Shown here: positions 1 to 18,913 of the stretch, piece after piece
How positions within the stretch are numbered: position 1 is the first letter of the stretch
How the letters are laid out: each line of letters opens with the position of its first letter
Origin: a virus
Taxonomy: Duplodnaviria; Heunggongvirae; Uroviricota; Caudoviricetes
Reading direction: 5' to 3' (one strand)
DNA: 18,913 bases
IMG/VR virus record: IMGVR_UViG_3300028969_000096
Coordinates: 1 to 18,913 of that record
The notes under the pieces: model-generated
The model's database searches: none
What the model was told of the DNA's origin: nothing
The model's input: only the letters and a program-made list of their open reading frames with translations
Translations under genes and position numbers: made by a program

Positions 1-227
1 CAACTGCAGCGTTGAAGGTTTCGTTTTTTGGCCCCTTCTATGGTGGCTATAATGTAATCAAACTGGATGATGAGTATAAGTATGCTCTTGTCAGTGGTCC
101 GAACAGAGAATACCTATGGATTCTGGCAAGGACCCCAACTATTCCAGATAAAGTAAAAGCAGACTATGTGCGAACCGCTCAAAAGTTGGGATTCAATGTC
201 AATGAATTATTATGGGTTAAACAATAA
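1..227 (+). CDS. Bacterial lipocalin (Blc-like) C-terminal fragment; 5' end lies outside the window
   Basis: The reading frame is open from the window edge to the TAA at 225-227. The translation ...FFGPFYGGYNVIKLDDEYKYALVSGPNREYLWILARTPTIPDKV...LWVKQ resembles the C-terminal motifs of outer-membrane lipocalin Blc as I recall them. Identity is from memory, not a search. Confidence 0.55.
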   Translation, partial: TAALKVSFFGPFYGGYNVIKLDDEYKYALVSGPNREYLWILARTPTIPDKVKADYVRTAQKLGFNVNELLWVKQ

Positions 228-382: not shown

Positions 383-760
383 TTATTTCGAACAATCAGC
401 ATCCATCTCCAATCGGAGATCCAACACCATCAGCATACCCTCCACTACGCCCTCAGCTTTCTGGAGCATCCTGCCAACCCAACAATCAGATCGCCCATGC
501 TTACGTGCAAGCGCCATAAAAGTCATGCCGCCGACATAATAGTCCACCAATAAATCATGCAAATCGCTGTTGTTCTTTTTCAGACGGGCCATGCACCCGC
601 AAATGATCATCGCGTCATCGTCACAACATTGCGGGCGAGATTTTACTTTTGAAGGAATTAATCCCTTAAAACCGGCGGCAATGGACGACCAGGTCACATC
701 TTCATGATTATTAGCCGCCCACGCTCCCCAACGTTCAAGAACCATCTGAATATCACGCAT
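383..760 (-). CDS. quuD: Late-gene antiterminator Q (phage 82 / DLP12 QuuD-like)
   Basis: The translation [35 protein letters not shown]...[18 protein letters not shown]... matches what I recall of the short Q antiterminator family (QuuD, about 127 aa). I place the start at the internal ATG at 760 because GGAGAAAG sits 6 nt upstream; the track ORF extends to 775. It is the last gene of the minus-strand operon, with a terminator downstream. Confidence 0.65.
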
Positions 761-4736: not shown

Positions 4737-4745
4737 GACCGACCT

Positions 4746-5084: not shown

Positions 5085-5743
5085 GCGTTAGTTTCTCCAC
5101 AGTCACGACACGCCACGGCGCCCGGAGCTGCACACTCGCGGGCGTCATTACTTTCTGAAATGCAAAAGATTTTGTAGACCAGTGCTGCATGCTCCTGCAG
5201 CTTCGAAATTGAGAGATACAGCTCGTCGTTAATTGCTGTCTTCTCATGCGGTTCCACTACACCGTCTTCGATTGCTGAACGAATCTGTTTTGAATAACTG
5301 CCGATCTGTTCAATGACTTCCAGCAGACGCTGGTTAATATCGGCGTTGTCCACATCCTCGACGTCAGGAAGAGACACAAATACGCCATTTGCAGACTGCG
5401 CCACAGCATCAGCAATGAAGTGAGTGCCACCAGCACGCTGTAAAACCATTGCCCATCCCAGCGGGAAAATCTGATCGCCATCGGCACGAAGGCGGTTAAA
5501 TAATGCGTTCTCTGTTACGTCCAGCCAGTCAGCAGCTTCAGCGTAACCCCCCGGCAACGCTGCGATAGTTTTTCTGACAGCTTTCACGTACCACTCAGGC
5601 TGTTTTTCTATTTTCCAGTGATGCTTACCCACGGTTAACTCCTCGTTTCTGTGGTTACGTTTACGCAGCTGAACCGCTAACTTTTGAATAGCACTCAGGT
5701 AATCCATCATTTGGATTGGGGTAAATATCAGGACGCAGTTCAT
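5081..5743 (-). CDS. Putative CII-like / YdaT-like early regulator
   Basis: The ORF lies directly downstream of the cro-like gene on the same strand. The start is uncertain (5743, or the ATGs at 5710 and 5707) and either choice overlaps the 3' end of cro. The function is assigned by position only. Confidence 0.35.
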
Positions 5744-5924
5744 GAGGGGTCACGGACCAGTTTCCCAACTCACAAAGTTGTAAAACCCGTTCTGACGGGA
5801 CTTGATTGTTAATTACCCAATTAGCGACGGATTGAGTGGACTTAAAACCAAAGTGACGGGCTACTTCAGATAAAGATTTTCCCGCAGCTTTTACTGCTTT
5901 CTCTGTGTAGTTTTGAGATGACAT
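5661..5924 (-). CDS. Cro-like HTH repressor (YdaS-like)
   Basis: An 87-aa product with the HTH KSLSEVARHFGFKSTQSVANWV. It is divergent from the cI-like gene, and the SD GGAGAAAGG precedes the ATG at 5924. Confidence 0.65.
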   Translation of the reverse strand: MSSQNYTEKAVKAAGKSLSEVARHFGFKSTQSVANWVINNQVPSERVLQLCELGNWSVTPHELRPDIYPNPNDGLPECYSKVSGSAA

Positions 5925-6040
5925 ACCTTTCTCCTCTGAAATTCAGAGGGATGATGCTACTTAAAATAGCAGAATGCAACTACTTAAAATAGAAATGACT
6001 AGCGTATGTGATGCGAGTAACCTTCTACCTATGGTAGAAG
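5925..6040. promoter_or_regulatory. Divergent cI/cro control region with candidate operators
   Basis: Seen in sequence: a 17-bp perfect palindrome cctctgaaAttcagagg (5933-5949), a second 17-bp palindrome ttctaccTATggtagaa (6021-6037), and two copies of ctacttaaaatag (5957-5969 and 5980-5992). Promoter positions were not resolved. Confidence 0.5.
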
Positions 6041-6735
6041 AACAGAAGTATCCAGATTTCGCCAAGAGACTAAACGAGCTAATGACAAACAAGGGAATTT
6101 CTGTCACCCAACTCAAAAGTCTTGTGGGCGTTACATATGAAATGGCGCGGCGATACACAATCGGCGCTGCGAAGCCTCGTGCCTCTGTCATGAATAAACT
6201 TGCATTGGCTCTGGGGGTATCAGCTTCATATTTAGAATATGGTGTTGGCGAGAGAGAAGGATGTAAGGAAATGGCAAGCATCCCCAATCCAACAAAACCC
6301 GATGTATACAGGATAGAAGTTTTGGATCTTAGCGTTAGCGCAGGACCTGGAACCTATATGCTTTCAGACTATGTTGATGTGCTCTACGCCATTGAGTTCA
6401 CAACAGAGCATGCCCGTTCTCTTTTCGGTAATCGTTCTCAAGATGATATTAAAGTTATGACTGTAAATGGCGACAGCATGTCCCCTACTCTAGTTTCCGG
6501 AGATCGACTGTTTGTCGACATTTCTGTTCGCAACTTCCAAACTGATGGTGTTTACTCTTTCGTTTATGGTAAGACGTTCCACGTTAAACGTCTACAAATG
6601 CAAGGCAACAAACTCGCCGTTCTTTCGGATAATCCAGCCTATGAGAAATGGTACATTGATGAGAAGTCCCAAGATCAACTTTATGTTATGGGCAAAGCAT
6701 TGATACACGAATCAATTAAATACAACCGGCTTTAG
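5974..6735 (+). CDS. cI-like repressor (HTH-XRE plus S24 LexA-like peptidase domain)
   Basis: HTH: FAKRLNELMTNKGISVTQLKSLVGVTYEMARRYTIG. Peptidase region: GDSMSPTLVSGDRLFVD...FHVKRLQ..., giving the Ser/Lys dyad context. The true start may be the ATG at 5995 or 6031 rather than 5974. Confidence 0.8.
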   Translation: MQLLKIEMTSVCDASNLLPMVEEQKYPDFAKRLNELMTNKGISVTQLKSLVGVTYEMARRYTIGAAKPRASVMNKLALALGVSASYLEYGVGEREGCKEMASIPNPTKPDVYRIEVLDLSVSAGPGTYMLSDYVDVLYAIEFTTEHARSLFGNRSQDDIKVMTVNGDSMSPTLVSGDRLFVDISVRNFQTDGVYSFVYGKTFHVKRLQMQGNKLAVLSDNPAYEKWYIDEKSQDQLYVMGKALIHESIKYNRL

Positions 6736-6905
6736 TTCTTCGTTTAGACTATAGAACTAAAGGTGAAAAAATAATATTTATCAAGCAAGTGCTATTACTA
6801 ATAGTTGTTTTACTCTCTTATTTTTATTAAACATTATCATTAACAATATAAAATAATCACCCAGCGTAAATTACAATATGCTGGGGGTCGAAAGGATAGA
6901 GAAAT

Positions 6906-7982
6906 ATGACAAAATCAATTTGTTTTTTTAATCATAAAGGTGGGGTAAGTAAAACCACAACAACCTTCAATCTTGGATGGGCACTTGCGGATGAAGGCAA
7001 GAAAGTATTGATGGTTGACCTTGATTCGCAATGTAATCTAACAGGAATGGTTCTTGGCTATGAAAAGATTGATGAGGGTTTAGATTCTTTTTATTCTAGC
7101 AGAGATAACTTAACTCTTGGACCTATTGTAGAATATTTGATTAATGGCGGACAACCTGAAGCATACCTTGAAAAAGAAACGGGAAAATTACACCCTACAC
7201 TGCATGAAAACCTTCTGCTTCTTCCCGGACATTTAGATGTTTCGGACTTAGATTCACAGATAAGTGTTTCTCTAAAAATTGCTGCTGGTATTCCTGCTAC
7301 AAGAAATATACCAGGGAACCTGCCAAAAATATTACAGCTAATCGCCATGAAGAATAATATTGATTACATTCTTTATGATCTCAGCCCTAATGTTGGAGGT
7401 TTAAATGAAGTAGTTCTCATGTCAAGTGACTATTTTATCGTACCTGTAGCTCCAGACTTTTTTTGCTGGCAAGCAATTCGCTCTCTCTCAAAAAATATAC
7501 CTCGCTGGCACAAAGAATTAGCATTATTTAAAGAAAATAATGATGGTAACTCTTCACAATCAATTAAAAATGCACCGCAGTTTCTAGGTATGATTCAGCA
7601 GAGATACAGGCCGCGTAAAGGAGCACCTGTAAAATCTTTCGAAAAATGGATGGCAGCTATCCGTGATGCTGTTGATTCGATCTTAGTGCCAAATCTAGAA
7701 AAAATTACCTGCATAATTCCACGAGATAAAGTGCAACATGCAATTAACAAAACAACAGTCAGTGGAGATTTATCAGCCTATGATCTTGCGCATATTTCCG
7801 ATTTCAACTCATTAATCGCAATAAGCCAACAACTAGCGACACCTGTTTTCTCCATCAGTGATCAGCAAATTCGCGATTCAGGGCAATTTGGGCATGCCTT
7901 AAATACAATGAAATCAAGCAGAGACGCCTTTAACGAACAATTTAAAGGGCTGGCTCAACGAGTTCTAGAACTTACAAAGTAA
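6906..7982 (+). CDS. ParA/MinD-family P-loop ATPase (orphan, 358 aa)
   Basis: Deviant Walker A KGGVSKTT sits at the extreme N-terminus (MTKSICFFNHKGGVSKTTTTFNLGWALADEGKKVLMVDLDSQ). A Walker B-like region follows (ILYDLSPNVGG...YFIVPVAP). There is a long C-terminal extension of unknown type. The RBS AAAGGA precedes the ATG. The gene lies in a markedly AT-rich island directly downstream of cI. Confidence 0.8.
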   Translation: MTKSICFFNHKGGVSKTTTTFNLGWALADEGKKVLMVDLDSQCNLTGMVLGYEKIDEGLDSFYSSRDNLTLGPIVEYLINGGQPEAYLEKETGKLHPTLHENLLLLPGHLDVSDLDSQISVSLKIAAGIPATRNIPGNLPKILQLIAMKNNIDYILYDLSPNVGGLNEVVLMSSDYFIVPVAPDFFCWQAIRSLSKNIPRWHKELALFKENNDGNSSQSIKNAPQFLGMIQQRYRPRKGAPVKSFEKWMAAIRDAVDSILVPNLEKITCIIPRDKVQHAINKTTVSGDLSAYDLAHISDFNSLIAISQQLATPVFSISDQQIRDSGQFGHALNTMKSSRDAFNEQFKGLAQRVLELTK

Positions 7983-7989
7983 TGCATGT

Positions 7990-8022
7990 GCCCGGCCGCA
8001 TAACCGGGCTTTACTCTTCTTT
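7990..8022 (+). terminator. Intrinsic terminator after the ParA-like gene
   Basis: Stem gcccgg(7990-7995)/ccgggc(8004-8009) with an 8-nt loop, followed by tttactcttctttc. Confidence 0.5.
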
Positions 8023-8304
8023 CTCCCTGATTAATCTCATAAAAAACTCCCTCCTCATAATTCACTATGCTCAATACCTACTCCAACTTCGTGCGATATT
8101 TTCAGTTTACAGCATAGTAAATCAGCAAAAACATTTAACTTTCAATTAATTATAGAAAAATCATAGACAACAACAAATATCTACTTTTTGTTGTTGATTT
8201 TTGCTACTTTAAGTAGCAACATAATGTAAGCTATCACGGACAGGCAGGACGCCCACGAAGTAGCCGCCGGTGGCGTATGAATGACCGGATGATTCGTTAG
8301 CAAC

Positions 8305-8327
8305 AAAAAAGCGCCCTACAGGACGCT
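8305..8327 (-). terminator. Intrinsic terminator on the minus strand
   Basis: In minus-strand RNA: AGCGUCC-UGUA-GGGCGCU, a 7-bp stem with one U-G wobble, followed by UUUUUUGUUGC. It lies about 180 nt downstream of the 8506-9009 gene. Confidence 0.45.
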
Positions 8328-8505
8328 TAGCTCTTTAACAATCTTAGTATCCCCGTAACAAAAGAGGGTTCTATGGTCATATTCTGTGCTTACGTTCATC
8401 CTAATGGATTTTTTATCAGCACCAACCAACAAGACGAATTCTGGATTCTACTTAGTAAGCAGGTCGGATGGGGACGATTCTGTCTAATCCGACCAGAATC
8501 AGAAT

Positions 8506-9009
8506 TTACAGAGAATGGAGGGCTTTTTGAATTACGTGAAATACGTCCGGCAGATGGTCAAGCCCCTGACCAAGTAATCGAATCGTCAGCTGTTTTATGG
8601 CGTCGGCAGGAAGCGTTCGAAGCTGAGAGAGTAATTTCTTCTTATCTTCAGTCGTGGCAGAAGTAGAACTATTGATGATACGTTCAAGTTCACAGAGAGT
8701 CTCATCATGCAATCTTATTGTCATAATCCCAAGAATAGCTTTAAGACCTCCATCATCACGAATGAAATCAATTCCATCTTTAGTAATTCTTAATTCAGGA
8801 ATATTTATATTTATGCCATCCAAGTAATAATCAAGAGCATTCTTAATCAAGCCATGTTCTTCGAGATAAATTAAGTTCGAAATTAGGACATTATCATCTC
8901 CAAATGCGTCACGAACAGACTGCAACGCATCATCAGAAATTTCATAAGGATGAGCATCATACAGTATTTGTAACAACTGCCTTTGTGCACTTCTATCAAA
9001 TTTGTCCAT
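8506..9009 (-). CDS. Hypothetical protein, possibly a small winged-helix phage protein (DUF2513-like)
   Basis: A 167-aa ORF with GGTGA upstream of the ATG. The N-terminal two thirds have no competing ORF. The 3' third overlaps a plus-strand ORF (8373-8666) that has a strong RBS, so the boundaries and even the coding strand near 8506-8666 are unresolved. Confidence 0.45.
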   Translation of the reverse strand: MDKFDRSAQRQLLQILYDAHPYEISDDALQSVRDAFGDDNVLISNLIYLEEHGLIKNALDYYLDGININIPELRITKDGIDFIRDDGGLKAILGIMTIRLHDETLCELERIINSSTSATTEDKKKLLSQLRTLPADAIKQLTIRLLGQGLDHLPDVFHVIQKALHSL

Positions 9010-9333
9010 CTTAAATAATCACCATGTTATTGGGGGTATCAAGATTAACCGAATCCTTGTTGTTGGGGAATAACCAGGTCCACCTCGCCTGATGTGGCTA
9101 AAAGCAGGCACATAACAGCTAAGTATTTTCAACCAGAGAGAATCCTTAGCGTTGTGGTGAATGCGGCTCAGCGCACGCGGGTTAAGGTTGAGGCTGACAG
9201 TCGACCTTCTGTGGATACCCACCCGCCTGGTGTGCAACCTTCGCCAGGCACCGGGAGGCACCCGGCACCACAACAGCCACTGCTTTGGCGGTACCAGTTT
9301 GTACACTTGCTTCCGGCTGGCACCGCTCTTTTT

Positions 9334-9422
9334 ACAAAACAGAGAAGAGCATCACCGGACGACGGGCTCATAACCCAATCCATCCGGGCGGCTGCCACCG
9401 CAGGTGTTCTTCTCTGTTTTGT
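9334..9422 (+). repeat. Long hairpin: 15-bp perfect inverted repeat flanking a 59-nt structured loop, within a roughly 450-bp non-coding GC-rich region
   Basis: Seen in sequence: acaaaacagagaaga (9334-9348) is the exact reverse complement of tcttctctgttttgt (9408-9422), with inner pairing cacc/ggtg. Immediately upstream is a terminator-like hairpin gcggtacc...ggcaccgc followed by tcttttt (9295-9333). No convincing ORF covers 9019-9470. Confidence 0.6.
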
Positions 9423-9470
9423 GGAGAAACCAACCGACCTTGCAGGGTCGATATGATGAGGAGCAGCAAA

Positions 9471-9833
9471 ATGGCTAGCGAACGCAGTACTGATGTGCAG
9501 GCATTTATCGGGGAGCTGGACGGCGGCGTATTTGAAACCAAAATCGGCGCAGTTCTCAGTGAGGTCGCTTCCGGTGTGATGAACACGAAAACCAAAGGGA
9601 AGGTCTCACTCAATCTGGAAATCGAACCGTTTGATGAGAACCGTGTGAAAATCAAACACAAACTCTCATATGTTCGCCCAACTAACCGCGGGAAAATTTC
9701 CGAAGAAGACACCACCGAAACGCCGATGTATGTCAATCGCGGTGGTCGCCTGACTATTCTGCAGGAAGACCAGGGACAATTACTGACTCTTGCCGGTGAA
9801 CCTGACGGAAAACTCCGCGCAGCAGGTCGTTAA
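9471..9833 (+). CDS. YfdP-like prophage protein
   Basis: A 120-aa product starting MASERSTDVQAFIGELDGG, with SD GAGGAG 8 nt upstream. It is the first gene of a block that matches the CPS-53 yfdP-yfdT gene order and sizes from memory. Confidence 0.55.
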   Translation: MASERSTDVQAFIGELDGGVFETKIGAVLSEVASGVMNTKTKGKVSLNLEIEPFDENRVKIKHKLSYVRPTNRGKISEEDTTETPMYVNRGGRLTILQEDQGQLLTLAGEPDGKLRAAGR

Positions 9834-9898
9834 TATCGTTCGTAATAAACTGATTATTTATCTCATCACTGAATATCTTTATATAGTGAGGACTTATT

Positions 9899-10723
9899 AT
9901 GTCTCAGAACTTAGACGCAACCGCAATTAATCAAATCCATGCCCTTATTTCTGCTCAGGGTGTTAATGAAATTATCAGTAAGATTGGTGCCGATGCTGTG
10001 GCATTGCCTGAGAATTTCCGCATTCATGATCTGGAAAAATTTAATTTAAATCGCTTCCGTTTCCGTGGTGCACTTTCCACTGCCAGCATCGATGATTTTA
10101 CCCGTTATTCTAAAGATCTTGCAGATGAAGGCACCCGCTGCTTTATCGATGCCGATAATATGCGTGCCGTCAGTGTGCTTAACCTGGGTACTATTGATGA
10201 GCCAGGTCACGCAGATAACACTGCCACTCTCAAACTGAAAAAGACAGCACCGTTCTCTGCTCTGTTGTCTGTTAACGGCGAGCGTAACTCCCAGAGGTCA
10301 CTGGCAGAATGGATCGAAGACTGGGCCGACTACCTTGTGGGCTTTGATGCTAATGGTGACGCCATTCAAGCAACAAAAGCGGCTGCGGCAGTCCGTAAAA
10401 TCACGATTGAAGCAAACCAGACCGCTGATTTTGAAGATAATGACTTCAGCGGCAAACGCTCCCTGATGGAGTCTGTCGAAGCGAAGACCAAAGACATTAT
10501 GCCAGTGGCATTTGAATTTAAATGCGTTCCGTTTGAAGGTCTGAAAGAACGTCCGTTTAAATTACGCCTCAGCATTATCACTGGCGATCGTCCTGTACTG
10601 GTTCTGCGCATTATTCAGCTGGAAGCGGTGCAGGAAGAAATGGCTAACGAATTTCGTGATCTGCTTGTTGAGAAATTCAAAGACAGCAAAGTAGAAACCT
10701 TTATTGGTACTTTCACCGCCTGA
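9899..10723 (+). CDS. YfdQ-like protein (DUF2303 family)
   Basis: A 274-aa product, the same length as K-12 YfdQ as I recall. It sits in the yfdP-Q-R-S-T-like order. Confidence 0.6.
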
Positions 10724-10735
10724 TTTCATTACTGC

Positions 10736-10757
10736 AAATGCCCCTGCGGGGGCATTT
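10736..10757 (+). terminator. Hairpin, possible attenuator or weak terminator
   Basis: A 9-bp perfect stem aaatgcccc/ggggcattt with a short loop, between the YfdQ-like and YfdR-like genes. No strong U-tract follows. Confidence 0.3.
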
Positions 10758-10850
10758 ATGGAAACGTAATTAACTCAATAATCACCGGATGGTGAGGGCT
10801 TCCTTTTACCAGAATTCAGCGCGGTGCAGTGCATATACGTGGAGAACAAA

Positions 10851-11387
10851 ATGTCATTTATTAAAACTTTTTCCGGGAAGCATTTTTATTATGACAAGAT
10901 AAATAAAGACGACATCGATATTAACGATATCGCGGTTTCCCTTTCAAATATCTGTCGCTTTGCCGGTCATCTTTCGCACTTCTACAGCGTCGCCCAACAT
11001 GCGGTTCTTTGCAGCCAGCTGGTGCCGCAGGAATTTGCTTTTGAAGCGTTAATGCATGATGCAACAGAAGCGTATTGCCAGGACATTCCCGCACCACTGA
11101 AACGCCTTCTTCCTGACTATAAACGGATGGAAGAAAAAATAGACGCCGTAATCCGTGAGGAATACGGGTTACCCCCAGTTATGAGTACACCCGTGAAATA
11201 TGCCGATCTCATCATGCTGGCAACCGAACGCCGCGATCTCGGGCTTGATGATGGCTCTTTCTGGCCTGTACTGGAAGGCATCCCGGCAACAGAGATGTTC
11301 AACGTGATTCCACTGGCACCGGGTCATGCCTACGGGATGTTTATGGAACGTTTTAACGATTTATCGGAGTTACGCAAATGCGCATGA
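10851..11387 (+). CDS. HD-domain phosphohydrolase (YfdR-like 5'-deoxynucleotidase family)
   Basis: The HD motif context is HAVLCSQLV...ALMHDATEAYCQDIPAPLKRLL. Starting at the ATG at 10851 (SD GGAGAA) gives 178 aa; the track ORF begins at 10824. Confidence 0.65.
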   Translation: MSFIKTFSGKHFYYDKINKDDIDINDIAVSLSNICRFAGHLSHFYSVAQHAVLCSQLVPQEFAFEALMHDATEAYCQDIPAPLKRLLPDYKRMEEKIDAVIREEYGLPPVMSTPVKYADLIMLATERRDLGLDDGSFWPVLEGIPATEMFNVIPLAPGHAYGMFMERFNDLSELRKCA

Positions 11388-11740
11388 ATGTTTTCGAAAT
11401 GGAAGGGTTTCTTCGCGGGAAATGTGTACCGCGAGATCTGAAAGTGAATGAAACAAATGCTGAGTACCTGTTACGTAAATTCGACGCGCTTGAAGCTAAA
11501 TGTGCGGCACTGGAAAACAAAATAATACCAGTGTCAGCTGAACTGCCACCAGCAAATGAAAGTGTTCTGTTATTTGATGCTAATGGAGAAGGCTGGCTGA
11601 TTGGCTGGCGTTCTCTCTGGTACACCTGGGGACAAAAAGAAACCGGAGAATGGCAGTGGACATTTCAGGTCGGGGACCTTGAAAACGTCAATATCACTCA
11701 CTGGGCAGTAATGCCAAAAGCACCGGAGGCTGGAGCATAA
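11378..11740 (+). CDS. YfdS-like protein (120 aa)
   Basis: Assigned by size and position in the conserved block. The start overlaps the end of the upstream gene. Confidence 0.5.
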   Translation: MRMNVFEMEGFLRGKCVPRDLKVNETNAEYLLRKFDALEAKCAALENKIIPVSAELPPANESVLLFDANGEGWLIGWRSLWYTWGQKETGEWQWTFQVGDLENVNITHWAVMPKAPEAGA

Positions 11741-12045
11741 TGACCACATTTACCAATAAAGAACTGATTAAAGAAATCAAAGAACGAATCAGCAGCCTAG
11801 AGGTTCGAGACGATATTGAGCGCCGTGCTTATGAAATCGCACTCGTATCTCTGGAAGTAGAGCCAGATGAACGCGAAGCCTATGAATTATTCATGGAAAA
11901 GCGTTTCGGTGACTTAGTAGATCGTCGGAGAGTAAAAAACGGCGATAACGAATACATGGCATGGGATATGACTCTCGGTTGGATCGTCTGGCAGCAACGA
12001 GCTGGTATCCATTTTTCAACAATGACACAGCAAGAGGTGAAATAA
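11740..12045 (+). CDS. YfdT-like protein (101 aa)
   Basis: Assigned by size and position. Its stop overlaps the next start as TAATG. Confidence 0.5.
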   Translation: MTTFTNKELIKEIKERISSLEVRDDIERRAYEIALVSLEVEPDEREAYELFMEKRFGDLVDRRRVKNGDNEYMAWDMTLGWIVWQQRAGIHFSTMTQQEVK

Positions 12046-12416
12046 TGGAGCCATACAGCCTCACACTCGATGAGGCCTGTCAGTTTCTTAAGATATCCAG
12101 ACCAACCGCCACCAACTGGATACGAACAGGCCGCCTACAGGCAACACGTAAAGATCCAACCAAGCCAAAATCTCCTTACCTCACAACACGGCAAGCTTGC
12201 ATTGCGGCGCTTCAGTCTCCGCTGCATACTGTCCAAGTGAGCGCGGGTGATGGCATAACAGAGGAAAGAAAATGTCACTCTTCCGCAGAAATGAAATATG
12301 GTATGCCTCGTATTCGCTCCCGGGCGGGAAACGAATTAAGGAATCTCTTGGCACAAAGGACAAGCGGCAAGCTCAGGAGTTGCACGACAAGCGAAAAGCA
12401 GAACTCTGGCGAGTAG
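12045..12416 (+). CDS. Excisionase-like HTH protein (Xis/AlpA-type)
   Basis: The N-terminus [31 protein letters not shown] is an excisionase-type HTH. It lies immediately upstream of int. The 3' extent is uncertain because the frame runs 145 nt into int. Confidence 0.45.
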
Positions 12417-13435
12417 AAAAGCTAGGGGATTTACCTGATGTCACTTTTGAAGAGGCCTGCCTAAGATGGCTTGAGGAAAAAGCTGATAAAAAATCTCTCG
12501 ATTCAGATAAAAGCCGGATTGAGTTCTGGCTTGAACATTTTGAGGGTATAAGGCTTAAAGATATCTCGGAGGCAAAGATTTACTCTGCTGTAAGCAGAAT
12601 GCATAACAGAAAGACGAAAGAAATATGGAAACAGAAAGTTCAGGCCGCCATCAGGAAAGGTAAAGAACCGCCTGTTTATGAACCAAAGCCAGTATCAACT
12701 CAGACAAAGGCAAAGCATCTTGCCATGATAAAGGCCATTCTCCGTGCTGCAGAACGCGACTGGAAGTGGCTGGAAAAAGCGCCTGTCATCAAGATACCAG
12801 CGGTCAGAAACAAGCGAGTCAGATGGCTGGAAAAGGAGGAAGCAAAACGCCTTATTGATGAGTGCCCCGAACCACTGAAATCTGTCGTCAAGTTTGCGCT
12901 GGCAACTGGTCTGAGAAAGTCGAACATCATAAATCTGGAATGGCAACAAATCGACATGCAGCGACGAGTTGCCTGGGTGAATCCAGAAGAGAGCAAATCA
13001 AACCGCGCCATTGGTGTGGCGCTGAACGATACCGCCTGTAAAGTGTTGCGTGATCAAATAGGCAAGCATCACAAATGGGTGTTTGTACATACCAAGGCGG
13101 CTAAGCGAGCAGATGGAACATCAACGCCTGCGGTCAGGAAGATGCGCATCGACAGCAAGACATCATGGCTATCAGCTTGTCGTCGTGCAGGAATTGAAGA
13201 TTTCCGTTTCCATGACCTCAGACACACCTGGGCAAGCTGGCTGATCCAGTCAGGCGTCCCATTATCTGTGCTTCAGGAAATGGGCGGATGGGAGTCCATA
13301 GAAATGGTTCGTAGGTATGCTCACCTTGCGCCTAATCATTTGACAGAGCATGCAAGGAAAATAGACGACATTTTTGGTGATAATGTCCCAAATATGTCCC
13401 ACTGTGGAATTATGGAGGATATAAAGAAGGCGTAA
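12272..13435 (+). CDS. Tyrosine site-specific integrase (lambdoid, DLP12 IntD-like)
   Basis: A 387-aa product starting MSLFRR. The C-terminal catalytic region reads [39 protein letters not shown], giving the R...H-x-x-R...Y signature. Its 3' end is 15 bp from the tRNA-Arg fragment. Confidence 0.9.
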
Positions 13436-13450
13436 CTGATTGAATTGTAA

Positions 13451-13495
13451 TGGTGCGCCCTGCAGGATTCGAACCTGCGGCCCACGACTTAGAAG
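13451..13495 (-). pseudogene. 3' fragment (about 45 nt) of a tRNA-Arg(UCU) gene (argU-like); prophage att core
   Basis: The reverse complement reads CTTCTAAGTCGTGGGCCGCAGGTTCGAATCCTGCAGGGCGCACCA, which runs from the anticodon loop through the T-arm and acceptor 3' strand to CCA. No matching 5' acceptor strand (GCGCCCT) or D-arm lies upstream, so this is a fragment and not a complete tRNA. Confidence 0.7.
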
Positions 13496-13917
13496 TTCCT
13501 AGAACGACATTTTAAGTCAACAACTTACCGCGCCATCTCTGCGCTCACACGTCCCACTACCTCAAAACATGTAAAGCCTTGCAAGCCATTGTGAGGCCTT
13601 ATGTGTCTCAGTTTTGTCCCTCTTTTTTGTACCAAAAAACATAGCAATTGAGGATAAACCTCATGCTATTTTCGCTTATATGCCTCTAAAGGCATGGCGC
13701 TTAAATAGATAAAAACACCACAAAAGCATAAAAAACCACACAGTAAAACCGCAACATAAAACAATAACAGATAATTAAACCAAAAACAGATAGCGCATTG
13801 TGATAATCATTCAATACTAAACAAAATATAAACAGTGGAGCAATATGTAATTGACTCATTAAGTTAGATATAAAAAATACATATTCAATCATTAAAACGA
13901 TTGAATGGAGAACTTTT

Positions 13918-14871
13918 ATGCGGGCGAAACTTCTGGGAATAGTCCTGACAACCCCTATTGCGATCAGCTCTTTTGCTTCTACCGAGACTATATCGTTTAC
14001 TCCTGACAACATAAATGCGGACATTAGTCTTGGAACTCTGAGCGGAAAAACAAAAGAGCGCGTTTATCTAGCTGAAGAAGGAGGCCGAAAAGTCAGTCAA
14101 CTCGACTGGAAATTCAATAACGCTGCAATTATTAAAGGTGCAATTAATTGGGATTTGATGCCCCAGATATCTATTGGGGCTGCGGGCTGGACTACTCTCG
14201 GCAGCCGAGGTGGCAATATGGTCGATCAGGACTGGATGGATTCCAGTAACCCCGGAACCTGGACAGATGAAAGTAGGCACCCTGATACACAACTCAATTA
14301 TGCCAACGAATTTGATCTGAATATCAAAGGCTGGCTCCTCAACGAACCCAATTACCGCCTGGGACTCATGGCCGGATATCAGGAAAGCCGTTATAGCTTT
14401 ACAGCCAGAGGTGGTTCCTATATCTACAGTTCTGAGGAGGGATTCAGAGATGATATCGGCTCCTTCCCGAATGGAGAAAGAGCAATCGGCTACAAACAAC
14501 GTTTTAAAATGCCCTACATTGGCTTGACTGGAAGTTATCGTTATGAAGATTTTGAGCTAGGTGGCACATTTAAATACAGCGGCTGGGTGGAAGCATCTGA
14601 TAACGATGAGCACTATGACCCAGGAAAAAGAATCACTTATCGCAGTAAAGTCAAAGACCAAAATTACTATTCTGTTGCAGTCAATGCAGGTTATTACGTA
14701 ACACCTAACGCAAAAGTTTATGTTGAAGGCGCATGGAATCGGGTTACGAATAAAAAAGGTAATACTTCACTTTATGATCACACTGATAACACTTCAGACT
14801 ACAGCAAAAATGGTGCAGGCATAGAAAACTATAACTTCATCACTACTGCTGGTCTTAAGTACACCTTTTAA
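13918..14871 (+). CDS. ompT: Outer-membrane protease OmpT (omptin)
   Basis: The 317-aa product MRAKLLGIVLTTPIAISSFASTETISFTPDNINADISLGTLSGK...AGLKYTF matches E. coli OmpT as I recall it almost residue for residue. An AT-rich upstream region and GGAG RBS precede it. Confidence 0.9.
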   Translation: MRAKLLGIVLTTPIAISSFASTETISFTPDNINADISLGTLSGKTKERVYLAEEGGRKVSQLDWKFNNAAIIKGAINWDLMPQISIGAAGWTTLGSRGGNMVDQDWMDSSNPGTWTDESRHPDTQLNYANEFDLNIKGWLLNEPNYRLGLMAGYQESRYSFTARGGSYIYSSEEGFRDDIGSFPNGERAIGYKQRFKMPYIGLTGSYRYEDFELGGTFKYSGWVEASDNDEHYDPGKRITYRSKVKDQNYYSVAVNAGYYVTPNAKVYVEGAWNRVTNKKGNTSLYDHTDNTSDYSKNGAGIENYNFITTAGLKYTF

Positions 14872-14890
14872 CGAAGTTAACCAGATTTTC

Positions 14891-14929
14891 TCCCCGGTGG
14901 TATTGTATAACCCCGGGGAATTTGTTTAC
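14891..14929 (+). terminator. Intrinsic terminator after ompT
   Basis: Stem tccccgg(14891-14897)/ccgggga(14913-14919) with a 15-nt loop, followed by aatttgttt. Confidence 0.4.
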
Positions 14930-15057
14930 AGTTACAAGTAGACAATATCCACTAATTTTGTAAGCATTTAACCTATGTCATAACGTGTAATCTCTTACCG
15001 CAACACAAGACCTCAATATATTCAAATCTTATCTTTATTCCGATATTCAGAGACACA

Positions 15058-16542
15058 ATGCGAAAAATAATTACTCATTTCAAAGTTGTTTTAACGTTAC
15101 TTCTACCAGTAACCGTATCTGCCCAGCAGATACAGTGGCAATCCTGTATGGCCAGTCAATTCAACCACTGGTTTGGTGAGGAAAAACCGTCTCCTGACTT
15201 ACTATGTGGTTATTTGTCTGTTCCATTAAAATATACAGACACAGGCGGAGATGCTTCTTATGAAAAAAAATCACAAGTCAAACTAGCGTTGACAAAATTG
15301 CCGGCAAAAAGCAAGCATAAAGGAAGTATCCTGATAATAAGTGGTGGTCCCGGGTTACCAGGCATAAATCCTTATATTAACTTTGACTGGCCAGTCACAA
15401 ATCTTCGTGAGTCATGGGATATTATTGGATTTGATCCTCGAGGCGTCGGACAGTCCACTCCGACAATAAACTGCCGGCAATCAGATACAGAGACTCGGGA
15501 AAACATAACCGAAAAGCAACAAGTATTAAATAAAATTAATGCCTGTATCCATAATACCGGAGCCGAAGTCATTCGCCATATCGGCTCTAACGAGGCTGTA
15601 TACGATATTGATCGTATTAGGCAAGCCTTGGGGGATAAACAACTGACAGCCGTGGCGTATTCGTATGGAACTCAAATTGCAGCCTTATATGCAGAACGTT
15701 TTCCCTACAACGTAAGATCTATCGTTCTTGATGGAGTCGTCGATATCGATGACCTGGAGGACAACTTCACATGGCAACTCAAACAGGCACAGAGTTATCA
15801 GGAAACGTTTGATCGCTTTGCATCCTGGTGTGCGCGTACAAAAAGTTGCCCGCTTTCTTCAGACAGAGATAAGGCAATAACTCAGTTCCATGAGCTATTA
15901 TCAAAATTACATCACAAACCTTTATTAGACAGTAAGGGAGAAAATATATCTTCAGATGAACTCATATCATTAACAACAGACCTTCTGCTATGGCGTTCAT
16001 CATGGCCAACCCTTGCAACTGCCATACGCCAGTTCTCTCAGGGGATTGTCAGTAATGAAATTGAAACTGCGCTCAGTGCTCCGATAGCCTCAGAAGAGTC
16101 AAGCGATGCTTCGGGGGTAATCCTCTGTGTAGATCAGGGGGATGAGCAATTAACACCAGAAGAGCGAAAATCCCGAAAAGACGCTCTTGCGAATGCCTTC
16201 CCGGCTATTAACTTTGACAATGGACGTTCCTATTCACCTGATTTTTGTGAATTATGGCCAATACATAGCGACCTGAACAAAACTCGCCTGAAAAATACTG
16301 TTCTGCCCTCTGGTTTACTGTTTGTAGCACACAAATACGACCCAACAACGCCCTGGATTAATGCCCGTAAGATGGCAGAGAAATTTTCCAGCCCGTTACT
16401 AACAATAAATGGTGATGGGCATACATTAGCTCTCACCGGAGTTAATTTATGTGTAGATAAAGCAGTTGTACATCACCTGATCACTCCACAAAAAATAGAA
16501 AATATATACTGCCCAGGAAATTCTGAAGCAGAAATACAATAA
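15058..16542 (+). CDS. Secreted alpha/beta-hydrolase (TAP-like / S33 peptidase family)
   Basis: An N-terminal signal peptide (MRKIITHFKVVLTLLLPVTVSA), the motif GFDPRGVGQS, and a nucleophile elbow AYSYGT. The product is 494 aa. Confidence 0.7.
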   Translation: MRKIITHFKVVLTLLLPVTVSAQQIQWQSCMASQFNHWFGEEKPSPDLLCGYLSVPLKYTDTGGDASYEKKSQVKLALTKLPAKSKHKGSILIISGGPGLPGINPYINFDWPVTNLRESWDIIGFDPRGVGQSTPTINCRQSDTETRENITEKQQVLNKINACIHNTGAEVIRHIGSNEAVYDIDRIRQALGDKQLTAVAYSYGTQIAALYAERFPYNVRSIVLDGVVDIDDLEDNFTWQLKQAQSYQETFDRFASWCARTKSCPLSSDRDKAITQFHELLSKLHHKPLLDSKGENISSDELISLTTDLLLWRSSWPTLATAIRQFSQGIVSNEIETALSAPIASEESSDASGVILCVDQGDEQLTPEERKSRKDALANAFPAINFDNGRSYSPDFCELWPIHSDLNKTRLKNTVLPSGLLFVAHKYDPTTPWINARKMAEKFSSPLLTINGDGHTLALTGVNLCVDKAVVHHLITPQKIENIYCPGNSEAEIQ

Positions 16543-16563
16543 TTTCAAAATATTCCGCTATTT

Positions 16564-16612
16564 GCTCCCAATGCAAAACATATATTGCATTGGGAGCATA
16601 TTCATATTTTTG
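16564..16612 (+). terminator. Intrinsic terminator after the hydrolase gene
   Basis: A 12-bp perfect stem gctcccaatgca(16564-16575)/tgcattgggagc(16586-16597) with a 10-nt loop, followed by a T-rich tract (atattcatatttttg). Confidence 0.55.
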
Positions 16613-16725
16613 TTATTCTTGTATGAAATCGTCTCATGTACACGGTCCTTTTTTCGCCGAAAACTGATATTACTTTAATCAAAAGTTGACGTGCCAGATT
16701 CGAAGTAAATTTATAAAATATCAAA

Positions 16726-17031
16726 TCAATATACATTTTGCACCTTCGAGATAGTAATGGCTATTACTGTAACATGAGTTACAAACAGCTTCATACCCAG
16801 AGCTACTGATGTATCAACACGATTCAACAATACCCGATATTTATTCCATGCCTCCAGCAACGATCTTTCTTCCTCCGTTGCGATTTCCAGATCTACAGCA
16901 TCCTGCAGTGGCGCAATATACTCACTGAATTCCTGGATGTAGAACTGTGTGGTGACGGTCTTCCAGCCATTCGGCTCCTGCTGTATCGAAGCATACCAGG
17001 CTATTTCAATATCGCTATGCTGCGGCAGCAT
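16726..17031 (-). pseudogene. Tail-fibre assembly protein fragment (TfaX-like, C-terminal part only)
   Basis: It carries the conserved Tfa C-terminal motif [37 protein letters not shown] but lacks the N-terminal domain, and the sequence after the motif diverges. Confidence 0.6.
16807..16927. repeat. Direct repeat, copy A (about 121 bp, roughly 90% identical to 17857-17977)
   Basis: Seen in sequence: the tfa C-terminal coding segment is duplicated in the same orientation on either side of the methyltransferase gene. Confidence 0.7.
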
Positions 17032-17087
17032 TTAACCCCTTGTAATTCATCGCCATAATTGATTTAATTCACAAATAAAACTATAAC

Positions 17088-17756
17088 ATGGTGAAATTAA
17101 TGAAAAAAAACACAGATGATGGGGCTAAAATTTACACACCACTTACCCTAAAGCTTTATGACTGGTGGGTTTTGGGAGTATCAAATCGGCTTGCATGGGG
17201 ATGTCCTACAAAGGAACACCTTCTTCCACACTTTCTGGAACATTTAGGTAACAACCATCTGGATATTGGTGTTGGAACTGGGTTTTACCTTACTCACGTA
17301 CCTGAGAGTAGTCTGATATCTTTAATGGATTTGAACGAAGCTAGCCTGAACGCGGCATCTACAAGGGCTGGGGAATCAAAAATTAAACATAAAATTAGCC
17401 ATGATGTTTTTGAACCTTATCCCGCGGCGTTACATGGTCAATTTGATTCCATTTCCATGTTTTACCTTCTTCACTGCCTGCCTGGAAATATATCTACAAA
17501 AAGCTGTGTAATACGCAATGCGGCGCAGGCCTTAACTGACGATGGAACTCTATACGGAGCCACAATTCTTGGCGATGGAGTTGTGCACAATAGCTTCGGT
17601 CAAAAACTGATGCGCATTTACAATCAGAAAGGCATCTTTTCAAACACAAAAGATTCCGAAGAAGGCTTAACACATATACTCTCAGAGCATTTCGAGAATG
17701 TTAAAACCAAGGTTCAAGGTACTGTAGTAATGTTTTCCGCTTCAGGGAAAAAATAG
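17088..17756 (+). CDS. Class I SAM-dependent methyltransferase (YbcY-like)
   Basis: The motif LDIGVGTGFYL is a SAM-binding glycine-rich loop. The start may be the ATG at 17100, which has GGTGA 5 nt upstream. It sits between two tfa copies, as ybcY does in DLP12 from memory. Confidence 0.6.
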   Translation: MVKLMKKNTDDGAKIYTPLTLKLYDWWVLGVSNRLAWGCPTKEHLLPHFLEHLGNNHLDIGVGTGFYLTHVPESSLISLMDLNEASLNAASTRAGESKIKHKISHDVFEPYPAALHGQFDSISMFYLLHCLPGNISTKSCVIRNAAQALTDDGTLYGATILGDGVVHNSFGQKLMRIYNQKGIFSNTKDSEEGLTHILSEHFENVKTKVQGTVVMFSASGKK

Positions 17757-17810
17757 CATCCAACCGCAGCACGTTCTTGCTTAAGACGTGCTGCGGCATA
17801 ATCCCAATGA

Positions 17811-18395
17811 TTACTCCCTGACAGGGTTCGTAGGCCACTCAATATCAGGTGCAGTTGATGTATCAACACGGTTCAGCAACACCCGATACTTTTTCCAGGC
17901 TTCCAGCAATGAGGTTTCTTCCTCCGTTGCGATTTCCAGATCTACAGCATCCTGAAGTGGCGCAATATGCTCACTGGCTACCTGCATCAGGCTGTTTTTT
18001 ATTTCTTCCGCCTCTCGGATCCGGAACAGTTTTTCTGCTTCTGCATCTTTCACCCAGGCTGTGCCGTTCCACTTCTGAAACTCCCCTTCCGGCGATAACC
18101 AGGTAACATTTTCCGGTAACGGACCGAGTTCAGAAATAAATAACTCGCCCCCTGACGCTACGTCATAAACCGTTTTACCCCGATGGTCTTCAACGAGATG
18201 CCACGATGCCTCATCACTGTTGAAAACAGCCACAAAGCCAGCAGGAATATCTGGCGGTGCAATATAGGTGCTGTTTGCTGGCAGACCTGTATGAGGCGGA
18301 ATATATGCGTCACCTTCACCAATAAATTCATTAGTTCCGGCCAGCAGATTATAAATTTTTATGGTCCGTGGTTGTTCACTCATTCTGAATGCCAT
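17811..18395 (-). CDS. Tail-fibre assembly protein (Tfa)
   Basis: A 194-aa product containing the lambda Tfa family motifs ...[38 protein letters not shown]. Its start overlaps the stop of the upstream tail-fibre gene. Confidence 0.8.
17857..17977. repeat. Direct repeat, copy B (partner of 16807-16927)
   Basis: Seen in sequence, as for copy A. Confidence 0.7.
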
Positions 18396-18913
18396 TATGC
18401 AAGCCTCACAATATAGTTAAATGCAATGTTTTTGACGGTGTTTTCCGCGTTACCAGCAGCGTTAACGGTGATGGTGTGTCCATGTGAACCAATCGCAACG
18501 GAGTGCGTGTGTGCACCAATACCGACAGTATGTGCGTGTGCGCCTGCGCTTGCAGCAGTGCCGGACAGTGAGTGGGTGTGCGCGCCAGCAGAGTTCGTAT
18601 TCGCCATCGTACCAACGCCCAGACCAACCGCCCCTTGTACCTGGTATGAGTTACTTCCGACAGCTGTAGAACCATACTGATAGGTGTCTTTAAAAGTGCT
18701 TGTATTAAACCTGCGCCCATCAACGTGCGAGTGTGCTCCAGCCGAGCTTGTAGAGCCGCTCAGACTATGCGTATGAGCCCCGGTGTTATTCGTGGATTTA
18801 GTGCCGTAATCAAACGACGATGTGGTTTTCGTACCCAAATCCGTACTGGATGCGCTGGCGCTGTGGGTGTGCGATTTAATGCCGTCCTGTTCCTGAGACA
18901 ATACGGCACGACC
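18395..18913 (-). CDS. Side tail-fibre protein, C-terminal part (gene continues beyond the window end)
   Basis: The frame is open to the window edge. The product carries repeated GAHTHS / GAHSHV / GAHAHT / GSHGHT motifs, typical of lambdoid tail-fibre C-termini, and is followed by tfa. Confidence 0.65.

What the first reader, a model, noticed from the sequence alone, without database searches (positions are those of the whole stretch)
13436..13540. tRNA-Arg 3' fragment as a junction between two prophage modules (tandem or composite prophage)
Only the 3' 45 nt or so of a tRNA-Arg(UCU) gene is present. The integrase 3' end is 15 bp away on one side. On the other side are ompT and a tail-fibre remnant, an arrangement that from memory mirrors the DLP12 right end in K-12 (tfaD-ybcY-tfaX-...-ompT-pauD). 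This suggests the left lambdoid element integrated into the displaced att fragment (attR) of a pre-existing DLP12-like prophage, or recombined with it. The left element has lost its late genes: Q and tR' abut a Blc-like gene fragment.
Basis: partly seen in the sequence, partly recalled or inferred. Interest (0 to 1): 0.5.

Follow-up and report, generated by a model that had tools for sequence, protein, structure and literature searches.

The report
attP site of a DLP12-type phage
The half tRNA-Arg gene is the ordinary attachment site (attP) of a DLP12-family temperate phage that integrates into the E. coli argU gene; the integrase on one side and ompT plus tail-fibre genes on the other are the two ends of one phage genome, a well-known arrangement.

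Summary
Window 13451-13495 (tRNA sense on the minus strand) is the 3' 45 nt of argU tRNA-Arg(UCU), 15 nt after the integrase stop. No complete tRNA is present.

The junction is an attP-configured site (P-O-P'): a 47-bp core flanked on both sides by phage DNA.
- It matches, bar one base, the attP of the isolated phages Turner and Kati and the middle junction of a head-to-tail double lysogen at argU in E. coli E28.
- Each half of the window differs by one base from one of the two ends of a single intact 45-kb argU prophage in E. coli FDAARGOS_1289. Only the Q/lipocalin module at 1-560 differs.
- 2533 of 5426 complete E. coli genomes have the empty site (argU next to envY), so both int and ompT are phage cargo.

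- Two different elements: the flanks are one phage type.
- A tail-fibre remnant: the tail-fibre assembly gene is intact and the tail-fibre gene is open to the window end.
- Lost late genes: the lipocalin gene is merely cut by the window edge.

The window alone cannot show whether it comes from a tandem lysogen or from free or circular phage DNA. This is known biology and of low interest.

The parts
13451..13495 (-). 3' 45 nt of tRNA-Arg(UCU) argU (tRNA positions 32-76, with the A73 discriminator variant); not a functional tRNA
   Evidence: 45/45 to FDAARGOS_1289 argU and 44/45 to K-12 argU and pauD. ARAGORN finds none. Rfam tRNA 24.8 bits, below the 29-bit gathering score.
13449..13495 (.). 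47-bp att core (common sequence O), shared by attP, attB, attL and attR
   Evidence: Alignment of ten att sites. 47 bp is also reported for DLP12 in PMC6379469.
12272..13435 (+). intD-type tyrosine integrase, 387 aa, intact. Its 3' end together with 13436-13448 forms the P arm (int side).
   Evidence: Pfam Phage_integrase 5.5e-47. 100% aa identity to the Int of the FDAARGOS_1289 and E28 prophages and 99.2% to K-12 IntD.
11961..12416 (+). Excisionase-like ORF (HTH_17 domain) overlapping the int start. The true start codon is uncertain.
   Evidence: Pfam HTH_17 2.1e-8. Same position as the SfIV excisionase gp29, which overlaps int. xisD is at this position in K-12.
13496..13917 (.). P' arm and AT-rich ompT upstream region. 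Phage DNA that is absent from the empty argU site.
   Evidence: Identical in the attR of FDAARGOS_1289, E28 and K-12 and in the attP of Turner and Kati. Absent from the reconstructed attB found in 2533 genomes.
13536..13620 (.). 85-nt non-coding block in the P' arm, conserved with thrW-integrating Shigella phage SfIV. Candidate binding region for Int arm-type sites or an accessory factor (inferred).
   Evidence: 94% identity to SfIV, against 64-71% for int and 62% for the core.
13918..14871 (+). ompT outer-membrane protease, phage cargo next to attP
   Evidence: Pfam Omptin 3.9e-130. 100% aa identity to FDAARGOS_1289 ompT. Present in phages Turner and Kati at the same place.
15058..16542 (+). 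alpha/beta hydrolase cargo gene; K-12 has appY at this position
   Evidence: Pfam Abhydrolase_1 3e-33.
17088..17756 (+). class I SAM-dependent methyltransferase (ybcY-like) cargo gene
   Evidence: Pfam methyltransferase families. Matches K-12 ybcY at 97.7% nt.
17811..18395 (-). intact tail-fibre assembly gene (194 aa)
   Evidence: Pfam Caudo_TAP 4.1e-44. 100% aa identity to FDAARGOS_1289.
18395..18913 (-). 3' end of the side tail-fibre gene, open to the window end
   Evidence: Pfam Phage_fiber repeat. 100% nt identity to the 3.4-kb tail-fibre gene of intact prophages.
383..757 (-). late antiterminator Q (125 aa), part of a swapped Q/late-promoter module
   Evidence: Pfam Phage_antitermQ 1.3e-50. 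The divergent patch at 401-560 against FDAARGOS_1289 is shown. The exact protein is in 24,625 collection blocks.
1..227 (+). 3' part of a lipocalin (Blc-like) moron gene, cut by the window edge and not a genuine gene fragment
   Evidence: Pfam Lipocalin_2 profile positions 70-146 of 146. A full 525-nt gene in strain 2452 and in 11 other contexts.

Best explanation
The tRNA-Arg fragment is the core of an attP-configured attachment site (P-O-P') of an apparently intact DLP12-family lambdoid temperate phage that integrates into argU.

The phage carries a copy of the 3' 45 nt of argU (plus 2 nt) directly downstream of int. The IntD-type tyrosine integrase recombines this core with the identical sequence in the host argU gene. 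Integration rebuilds a complete argU from the host 5' part and the phage 3' part (attL, next to int). It also displaces the host's own 3' part to the far end of the prophage (attR, the pauD pseudo-tRNA next to ompT).

In the window both arms are phage DNA: int, xis and the early genes on one side, and the accessory region (ompT, hydrolase, methyltransferase) and tail-fibre genes on the other. The DNA is therefore in the vegetative or circular gene order. That order exists in free or excised phage genomes and, equally, at the internal junction of head-to-tail tandem lysogens at argU.

Shown here:
- the identity of the core and of both arms;
- the existence of all four att forms (attB, attL, attR, attP) in public genomes;
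- that the strand-exchange point lies to the anticodon side of base 13454.

Inferred from family knowledge: the exact crossover (probably the anticodon-loop end of the core), the use of arm sites, and activity.
For: 1. Ten att sites were aligned. The window junction equals the attP of phages Turner (PP925837) and Kati (PP925833) and the middle junction of the E28 tandem, bar the A73/G73 base. Its left flank equals the phage side of attL in K-12, E28 and FDAARGOS_1289. Its right flank equals the phage side of attR in the same genomes.

2. FDAARGOS_1289 carries one intact 45-kb prophage between argU and envY. Window 561-13495 has 1 mismatch to its int-to-Q end. Window 13449-18913 has 1 mismatch (the discriminator base) to its ompT-to-tail-fibre end.

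3. Turner holds int-core-ompT-hydrolase-methyltransferase (window 12033-17796, 99.5%) and Kati int-core-ompT (window 9026-14921, 97.9%, with appY next) as one contiguous stretch. In both, further small ORFs, a DNA invertase and then the tfa and tail-fibre genes follow.

4. An empty attB, reconstructed as K-12 minus DLP12, is contiguous (tRNA-Arg next to envY) in 2533 of 5426 complete E. coli genomes, many at 100% identity. Both int and ompT therefore belong to the insert.

5. In FDAARGOS_1289, attL carries the window's T at 13454 and attR carries the host's C. This places the exchange point between 13455 and 13495.

6. int is intact and an excisionase-like ORF is present.

7. Literature: the DLP12 47-bp att at argU (PMC6379469); the epsilon34 attP, 43 bp of argU just downstream of int (PMC2629481); and Shigella Sf phages that carry conversion genes next to int-attP (PMC3851460).
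Against: The window ends before any second att copy, so its replicon context is unknown.

No arm-type site motif could be shown statistically. GTCCCAY occurs 4 times against 3.5 expected.

Among complete E. coli chromosomes, a junction with full-length int and the window's upstream genes (yfdR to yfdT) was found only in E28. The exact junction was absent from IMG/VR and from the GTDB representative genomes. The direct comparators are therefore few: two phage isolates, one tandem lysogen, one short metagenome contig and 78 decayed junctions.

Recombination activity was not tested.
Confidence: 0.9

Rival explanations
1. Tandem lysogen: the window comes from a bacterial chromosome in which two DLP12-family prophages lie head to tail at argU, and the fragment is their internal junction. 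This is a sub-case of the attP reading and is the supportable part of the first reader's idea.
For: E. coli E28 has two identical 45-kb copies between envY and argU. Its middle junction is 99.9% identical to window 12900-14100, and window 3301-17930 is 99.2% identical to E28 across it. A further 78 complete genomes keep a decayed version: ompT, methyltransferase, a tfa fragment, a 5'-truncated int, the core, a second ompT, then a full prophage. Tandem arrays at this site are therefore real and can be old.
Against: Nothing in the window distinguishes this from free or excised phage DNA. A junction with intact int and the window's upstream genes occurs in only 1 of 5426 complete genomes. No flanking argU or envY lies within the window.
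Confidence: 0.45
2. One reading: a different lambdoid element that has lost its late genes integrated into, or recombined with, the attR of a pre-existing degraded DLP12-like prophage. The two flanks would then be unrelated modules.
For: The right flank resembles the K-12 DLP12 right end. The Q/lipocalin module at 1-560 differs from that of the FDAARGOS_1289 prophage, so the left element is a mosaic. Decayed tandem arrays do exist in other strains.
Against: Both flanks are within one base of the two ends of a single intact prophage. The same int-core-ompT-hydrolase-methyltransferase order occurs in free phages. The tfa gene and the tail-fibre 3' end are intact. The lipocalin 'fragment' is cut by the window edge, and lysis genes follow the full gene in 12 of 12 sampled contexts, with packaging genes as well in 11. 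The integrase is IntD itself, 99.2% identical in protein to K-12 IntD.
Confidence: 0.07
3. Assembly chimera: a short-read assembler joined the attL and attR ends of a single prophage across the 47-bp repeat, or assembled reads from spontaneously excised circles, so the junction is not in the main chromosome.
For: The core is a 47-bp exact repeat present at both prophage ends. Both flanks are near-identical to the ends of one prophage. The window ends lie in sequences that recur in many prophages: lipocalin/Q in 1131 genomes and tfa/tail fibre in 4943 genomes. Draft contigs typically break in such repeats.
Against: The same junction exists in independently sequenced phage isolates, in a chromosome-level assembly and in a metagenome contig. 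No artefact is therefore needed to explain it. No read data are available.
Confidence: 0.07
4. A genuine but degenerate tRNA gene or tRNA-like gene carried by the phage. GenBank annotates an 84-nt 'tRNA-Pro' at this spot in phages Turner and Kati.
For: The GenBank feature tables of PP925837 and PP925833 call a tRNA-Pro here. Rfam gives a weak tRNA hit at 13462-13545.
Against: ARAGORN finds no tRNA in the window or in the Turner and Kati loci. The Rfam score is below the gathering threshold, needs a 29-nt insertion and has no acceptor stem. The real homology is 45/45 to the 3' part of tRNA-Arg and stops exactly at position 32.
Confidence: 0.01

Closest known systems
DLP12 cryptic prophage of E. 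coli K-12 and its att sites (argU attL, pauD attR)
   Same: Same integrase (99.2% aa). Same 47-bp core, with one base different. Same 15-nt int-to-core spacing. Same right-end genes: ompT and the ybcY, tfaX and tfaD homologues.
   Different: K-12 has the two recombinant sites, attL and attR, 21 kb apart around a defective prophage broken by IS elements. The window has the unrecombined P-O-P' form. Its closest relatives are intact 45-kb prophages and viable phages. It also has an alpha/beta hydrolase where K-12 has appY, and lipocalin where K-12 has nmpC.
Escherichia phages Turner (PP925837) and Kati (PP925833), isolated lambdoid phages
   Same: Contiguous int, core and ompT in both, followed by hydrolase and methyltransferase in Turner. 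99.5% identity (Turner, window 12033-17796) and 97.9% (Kati, window 9026-14921) across the junction. The attP is identical bar the discriminator base.
   Different: The early regions differ: Turner has Gam/RecT/Exo, while the window has the yfdP-T and ParA type. Small ORFs and a DNA invertase lie between the methyltransferase and tfa. Their records annotate the core as 'tRNA-Pro', which ARAGORN does not support.
Tandem lambda-type polylysogens (B-O-P' ... P-O-P' ... P-O-B'); natural example E. coli E28 at argU
   Same: The internal junction of a head-to-tail double lysogen is a reconstituted attP. The E28 middle junction matches the window.
   Different: Whether the window's source holds two copies cannot be seen from the window.
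attP of Salmonella phage epsilon34 (argU) and of thrW-integrating P22 and Shigella SfI/II/IV/V
   Same: A tRNA 3' fragment directly downstream of a related tyrosine integrase, with lysogenic-conversion cargo next to attP (PMC2629481, PMC3851460). An 85-nt P'-arm block is 94% identical to SfIV.
   Different: The thrW phages carry a tRNA-Thr core. Their int is only 64-71% identical in nucleotides. Their cargo is gtrABC rather than ompT.

Membership tests
Phage attP site of a tyrosine (lambda/P22-type) integrase targeting a tRNA gene | Lies next to an intact tyrosine integrase gene | tested here: met
   int 12272-13435 matches Pfam Phage_integrase at 5.5e-47 over the full-length domain. Its stop is 15 nt from the core.
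Phage attP site of a tyrosine (lambda/P22-type) integrase targeting a tRNA gene | The core sequence is identical to the 3' part of the target tRNA gene (attB) | tested here: met
   The 47-bp block 13449-13495 includes 45/45 identity to argU of FDAARGOS_1289 and 44/45 to K-12 argU.
Phage attP site of a tyrosine (lambda/P22-type) integrase targeting a tRNA gene | Both flanks are element DNA that is absent from the unoccupied chromosomal site | tested here: met
   An empty site with argU directly followed by envY is contiguous in 2533 of 5426 genomes. The two flanks equal the two ends of one prophage.
Phage attP site of a tyrosine (lambda/P22-type) integrase targeting a tRNA gene | The same junction is present in free phage genomes | tested here: met
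   Phages Turner and Kati.
Phage attP site of a tyrosine (lambda/P22-type) integrase targeting a tRNA gene | Arm-type Int sites and accessory-factor (IHF, Xis) sites in the P and P' arms | tested here: inconclusive
   An 85-nt P' block is conserved at 94% with SfIV although int is only 64-71% identical. No repeated motif is significantly enriched.
Phage attP site of a tyrosine (lambda/P22-type) integrase targeting a tRNA gene | Int-dependent recombination with attB | not testable with these tools
   This needs an in vivo or in vitro recombination assay. Indirect support: attL and attR products with the expected allele distribution at 13454 exist in FDAARGOS_1289.
Internal junction of a tandem prophage array | An attL (complete argU) and an attR (envY side) flank two prophage copies on the same replicon | not testable with these tools
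   The window ends in the lipocalin gene and in the tail-fibre gene, and the source record was not found. A precedent exists in E28.
Functional tRNA gene | A complete cloverleaf with both acceptor-stem strands | tested here: not met
   ARAGORN finds 0 genes. Rfam tRNA scores 24.8 bits, below the 29-bit threshold, with no acceptor stem. Homology to argU stops at position 32.
pauD-type attR pseudo-tRNA (K-12) | A core flanked by chromosomal (envY-side) DNA on the side away from ompT | tested here: not met
   The window has the int arm there. The attR sites of K-12, E28 and FDAARGOS_1289 diverge from the window immediately left of 13449.

The most novel reading that the evidence does not exclude
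The window comes from a chromosome with a stable head-to-tail double lysogen of an intact ompT-carrying phage at argU. Such arrays would duplicate ompT. Seventy-eight complete genomes keep two chromosomal ompT copies from a decayed array. Their internal attP would allow phage production by cos-to-cos packaging without Int/Xis excision. They could therefore be a recurrent route to ompT dosage change and to prophage persistence at this locus.
Probability: 0.3. Interest if true: 0.3.

Novelty: already known. Interest (0 to 1): 0.1.

Why it matters
It matters mainly for annotation.

- An att core should not be read as a broken tRNA gene. In the GenBank records of phages Turner and Kati it is called a 'tRNA-Pro'.
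- An int gene facing ompT across a half tRNA does not by itself show two different prophages.
- ompT and the neighbouring hydrolase and methyltransferase genes are cargo of a still-viable phage family. They sit next to attP, in the same position as the O-antigen conversion genes of Shigella phages.
- About half of complete E. coli genomes have the argU site empty.

None of this changes current understanding of site-specific integration.

Tried and rejected
1. Complete tRNA: rejected by ARAGORN and by Rfam at gathering and permissive thresholds.

2. Finding the source record: not achieved.
- The exact 72-nt junction pattern gave 0 hits in IMG/VR and 0 in the GTDB representatives. It gave one 1.8-kb metagenome contig at 97.6% identity.
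- No complete E. coli genome or phage record holds the whole window. The best is E28, at 91% coverage.
- Look-ups by exact Q and DUF968 proteins gave only relatives. The nearest architecture is L029 from GCA_000351285.1, with 35 differences, all in 129-575.
- Every protein encoded between 561 and 18913 is identical to its FDAARGOS_1289 counterpart, so no rare allele was available to trace the source.

3. Arm-type site motif: GTCCCAY is not enriched, and the short direct and inverted repeats around the core are no better than chance.

4. Phage 2H10 as a third free-phage comparator: rejected, because it has a different integrase in the opposite orientation.

5. Literature search for tandem prophages at argU with ompT: nothing relevant was found.

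Full report
**The observation**

The sequence at 13451-13495 is the reverse complement of the 3' 45 nt of E. coli argU tRNA-Arg(UCU), tRNA positions 32-76. It matches 45/45 to the intact argU of strain FDAARGOS_1289. It matches 44/45 to K-12 argU and to the K-12 DLP12 right-end copy. The single difference is the discriminator base, A73 in the window and G73 in K-12.

With two further bases, the block common to all att forms is 47 bp (13449-13495). This is the size published for DLP12 (PMC6379469).

The integrase ORF (12272-13435, 387 aa, Pfam Phage_integrase 5.5e-47) stops 15 nt before the fragment, as intD does relative to argU in K-12.

No complete tRNA exists here. ARAGORN finds none, and Rfam at gathering threshold finds none. 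A permissive scan gives a sub-threshold tRNA hit (24.8 bits against 29) that relies on the T arm and a 29-nt insertion.

**What flanks the fragment**

- Left of the core, window 12177-13498 is 99.2% identical to K-12 intD plus the argU 3' end.
- Right of it, 13449-14921 is 96.7% identical to the K-12 pauD-ompT end of DLP12.
- Window 16802-18249 is 97.7% identical to the K-12 tfaX-ybcY-tfaD region.

In K-12, however, those two flanks sit 21 kb apart at the two ends of the prophage. In the window they are joined through the core.

**The decisive comparisons**

1. An alignment of ten att sites shows three things.
 - The window junction equals the attP of the isolated phages Turner and Kati, and the middle junction in E. 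coli E28, bar the discriminator base.
 - Its left arm equals the phage side of attL in K-12, E28 and FDAARGOS_1289.
 - Its right arm equals the phage side of attR in the same genomes. The attL and attR sites diverge completely on their chromosomal sides.

2. FDAARGOS_1289 has one apparently intact 45-kb prophage between argU and envY: int, early genes, Q, porin, lysis, terminase, head, tail, tail fibre, tfa, methyltransferase, hydrolase, ompT.
 - Window 561-13495 has one mismatch to its int-to-Q end.
 - Window 13449-18913 has one mismatch, the discriminator base, to its ompT-to-tail-fibre end.
 - All encoded proteins in those ranges are identical.

3. In Turner, int-core-ompT-hydrolase-methyltransferase is one contiguous stretch (window 12033-17796, 99.5%). 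In Kati, int-core-ompT is contiguous (window 9026-14921, 97.9%), with appY next. In both phages, small ORFs, a DNA invertase and then the tfa and tail-fibre genes follow.

4. A synthetic empty site (K-12 with DLP12 removed) is found contiguous, with tRNA-Arg next to envY, in 2533 of 5426 complete E. coli genomes, many at 100% identity. Both int and ompT are therefore insert DNA.

All four att forms are thus documented, and the window holds the P-O-P' form.

**Mechanism**

[quoted passage not shown] - Integration rebuilds the gene at attL from the host 5' part and the phage 3' part.
- The host's own 3' part is displaced to attR.

A natural marker supports this. In FDAARGOS_1289 the functional argU at attL carries the phage allele T at window position 13454 (A73), while attR carries the host allele C (G73), which is also the allele of the empty sites. 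The exchange point therefore lies between 13455 and 13495.

The exact crossover is inferred from my own knowledge of this integrase class. It is probably at the anticodon-loop end, where the identity block stops at tRNA position 32. It was not tested.

An intact int and an excisionase-like ORF (HTH_17) are present. The literature describes the same design for epsilon34: 43 bp of argU just downstream of int, with DLP12 Int as the closest relative (PMC2629481). The Shigella Sf phages likewise carry their conversion genes next to int-attP (PMC3851460). ompT occupies that cargo position here.

**Tandem array or free phage**

An attP-configured junction occurs in free or circular phage DNA and also in the middle of head-to-tail polylysogens.

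E. coli E28 is a natural example of the second case. It has two copies with identical protein accessions between envY and argU, and its middle junction is 99.9% identical to the window's.

Seventy-nine of 5426 complete genomes have a contiguous int-core-ompT. The three examined apart from E28 are decayed arrays: ompT, methyltransferase, a tfa fragment, a 5'-truncated int, the core, a second ompT, then a full prophage. Only E28 has the full-length int with its upstream early genes at the junction.

The window stops inside a lipocalin gene on the left and inside the tail-fibre gene on the right, so no second att copy can be seen. I could not find the source record. I therefore leave tandem array against free or excised phage open, at roughly even odds.

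- *Two modules.* The two sides are the two ends of one phage type, not two different modules.
- *Tail-fibre remnant.* The tail-fibre assembly gene is intact (194 aa, Caudo_TAP 4e-44). The tail-fibre gene is open to the window end and identical to that of intact prophages. The small tfa and dinI fragments between the hydrolase and the methyltransferase are fossils inside the accessory region. They are also annotated in the full-length prophages of E28 and FDAARGOS_1289, and the stretch that holds them is 99.5% identical in phage Turner.
- *Lost late genes.* Window 1-227 is the last 226 nt of a 525-nt lipocalin gene, Pfam Lipocalin_2 positions 70-146 of 146. Elsewhere it is a complete gene lying antisense between Q and the lysis genes, where DLP12 has nmpC.
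- *What follows the lipocalin gene elsewhere.* In the ten contigs sampled for this exact Q protein, holin, lysozyme, Rz and Nu1 follow it, and the large terminase subunit is also seen in eight of the ten. The same is true in the relative that has the window's DUF968-Q-lipocalin order (L029). In strain 2452 only a truncated lysozyme gene follows. The apparent fragment is a window-edge artefact.
- *The left-end difference.* The only real difference from the FDAARGOS_1289 prophage is a swapped module at 1-560, comprising the Q C-terminus, the late promoter region and the moron. This is ordinary lambdoid mosaicism.

**Comparison with known systems, and novelty**

The closest known objects are:
- the att sites of K-12 DLP12, with the same Int and core but in recombined form around a defective prophage;
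- phages Turner and Kati, with the same attP;
- classical tandem lambda lysogens, with the same internal junction logic;
- the attP sites of epsilon34, P22 and the Shigella Sf phages, with the same design and either the same or a different tRNA core.

One modest extra is an 85-nt non-coding block in the P' arm (13536-13620). It is 94% identical to thrW-integrating SfIV although int is only 64-71% identical and the core 62%. This fits a conserved protein-binding arm, but I could not demonstrate repeated arm-type motifs.

Everything essential here is textbook site-specific recombination at a well-studied locus. Novelty: already known. Interest: low.

Noticed in passing
window 13454; L008 (FDAARGOS_1289) 1470-1514 versus 46650-46694: The phage-borne core carries A73 as the discriminator base, where K-12 argU and the empty sites have G73. 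After integration the host's only argU gene carries the phage allele (A73), and the original G73 3' half sits in the attR pseudo-tRNA. Phage integration therefore silently swaps the discriminator base of tRNA-Arg(UCU).
   Followed up: partly
L006 (phage Turner) 6391-6474; L007 (phage Kati) 5936-6019: The GenBank records annotate an 84-nt 'tRNA-Pro' exactly on the attP core. ARAGORN finds no tRNA there, and Rfam is sub-threshold on the equivalent window sequence. This is most likely a mis-annotation of the argU fragment. ompT and the hydrolase are labelled 'hypothetical protein' in these records.
   Followed up: yes
L010 (FDAARGOS_1267) 17633-21961; L022 (04-00955); L023 (2014C-3338): These chromosomes carry two full-length ompT genes about 2.4 kb apart, about 94% identical in nucleotides. 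They are separated by a methyltransferase gene, a tfa fragment, a 5'-truncated int and the att core. This looks like the decayed remains of a tandem prophage array at argU. About 78 of 5426 complete genomes appear to have this structure, and envY is missing next to it.
   Followed up: partly
L002-L004 (E. coli E28, NZ_CM143889.1 about 3,694,000-3,784,000): A perfect head-to-tail duplication of a 45-kb DLP12-family prophage, with identical protein accessions in both copies, lies between envY and argU. It is either a genuine double lysogen or an assembly duplication. No read data were available to check.
   Followed up: partly
window 13536-13620: An 85-nt non-coding block in the P' arm is 94% identical to thrW-integrating Shigella phage SfIV, although the integrase genes are only 64-71% identical and the cores differ. 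It is a candidate conserved arm for Int or accessory-factor binding. Its function is untested.
   Followed up: partly
window 17854-18052 (minus strand): The Rfam family IS009 (RF02111) matches at 227.8 bits, full length. It lies entirely inside the tail-fibre assembly gene 17811-18395, so this 'RNA family' overlaps a conserved phage coding sequence.
   Followed up: no
window 1-560: A mosaic breakpoint lies inside the Q gene. The C-terminal third of Q, the region downstream of it and an antisense lipocalin moron form a module found in 1131 complete E. coli genomes. It replaces the quuD/porin (nmpC-like) module of the otherwise identical FDAARGOS_1289 prophage.
   Followed up: yes
window 6906-7982: A ParA-family ATPase gene (358 aa) sits just beyond the repressor gene, between it and the yfdP-T genes of this integrating lambdoid phage. 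It is conserved in E28 and FDAARGOS_1289. Its role in an integrating phage is unclear.
   Followed up: no
E. coli genome collection: 2533 of 5426 complete E. coli genomes have argU directly followed by envY. They have no DLP12-type element and no ompT at this locus. The K-12 arrangement is therefore found in only about half of complete genomes.
   Followed up: partly
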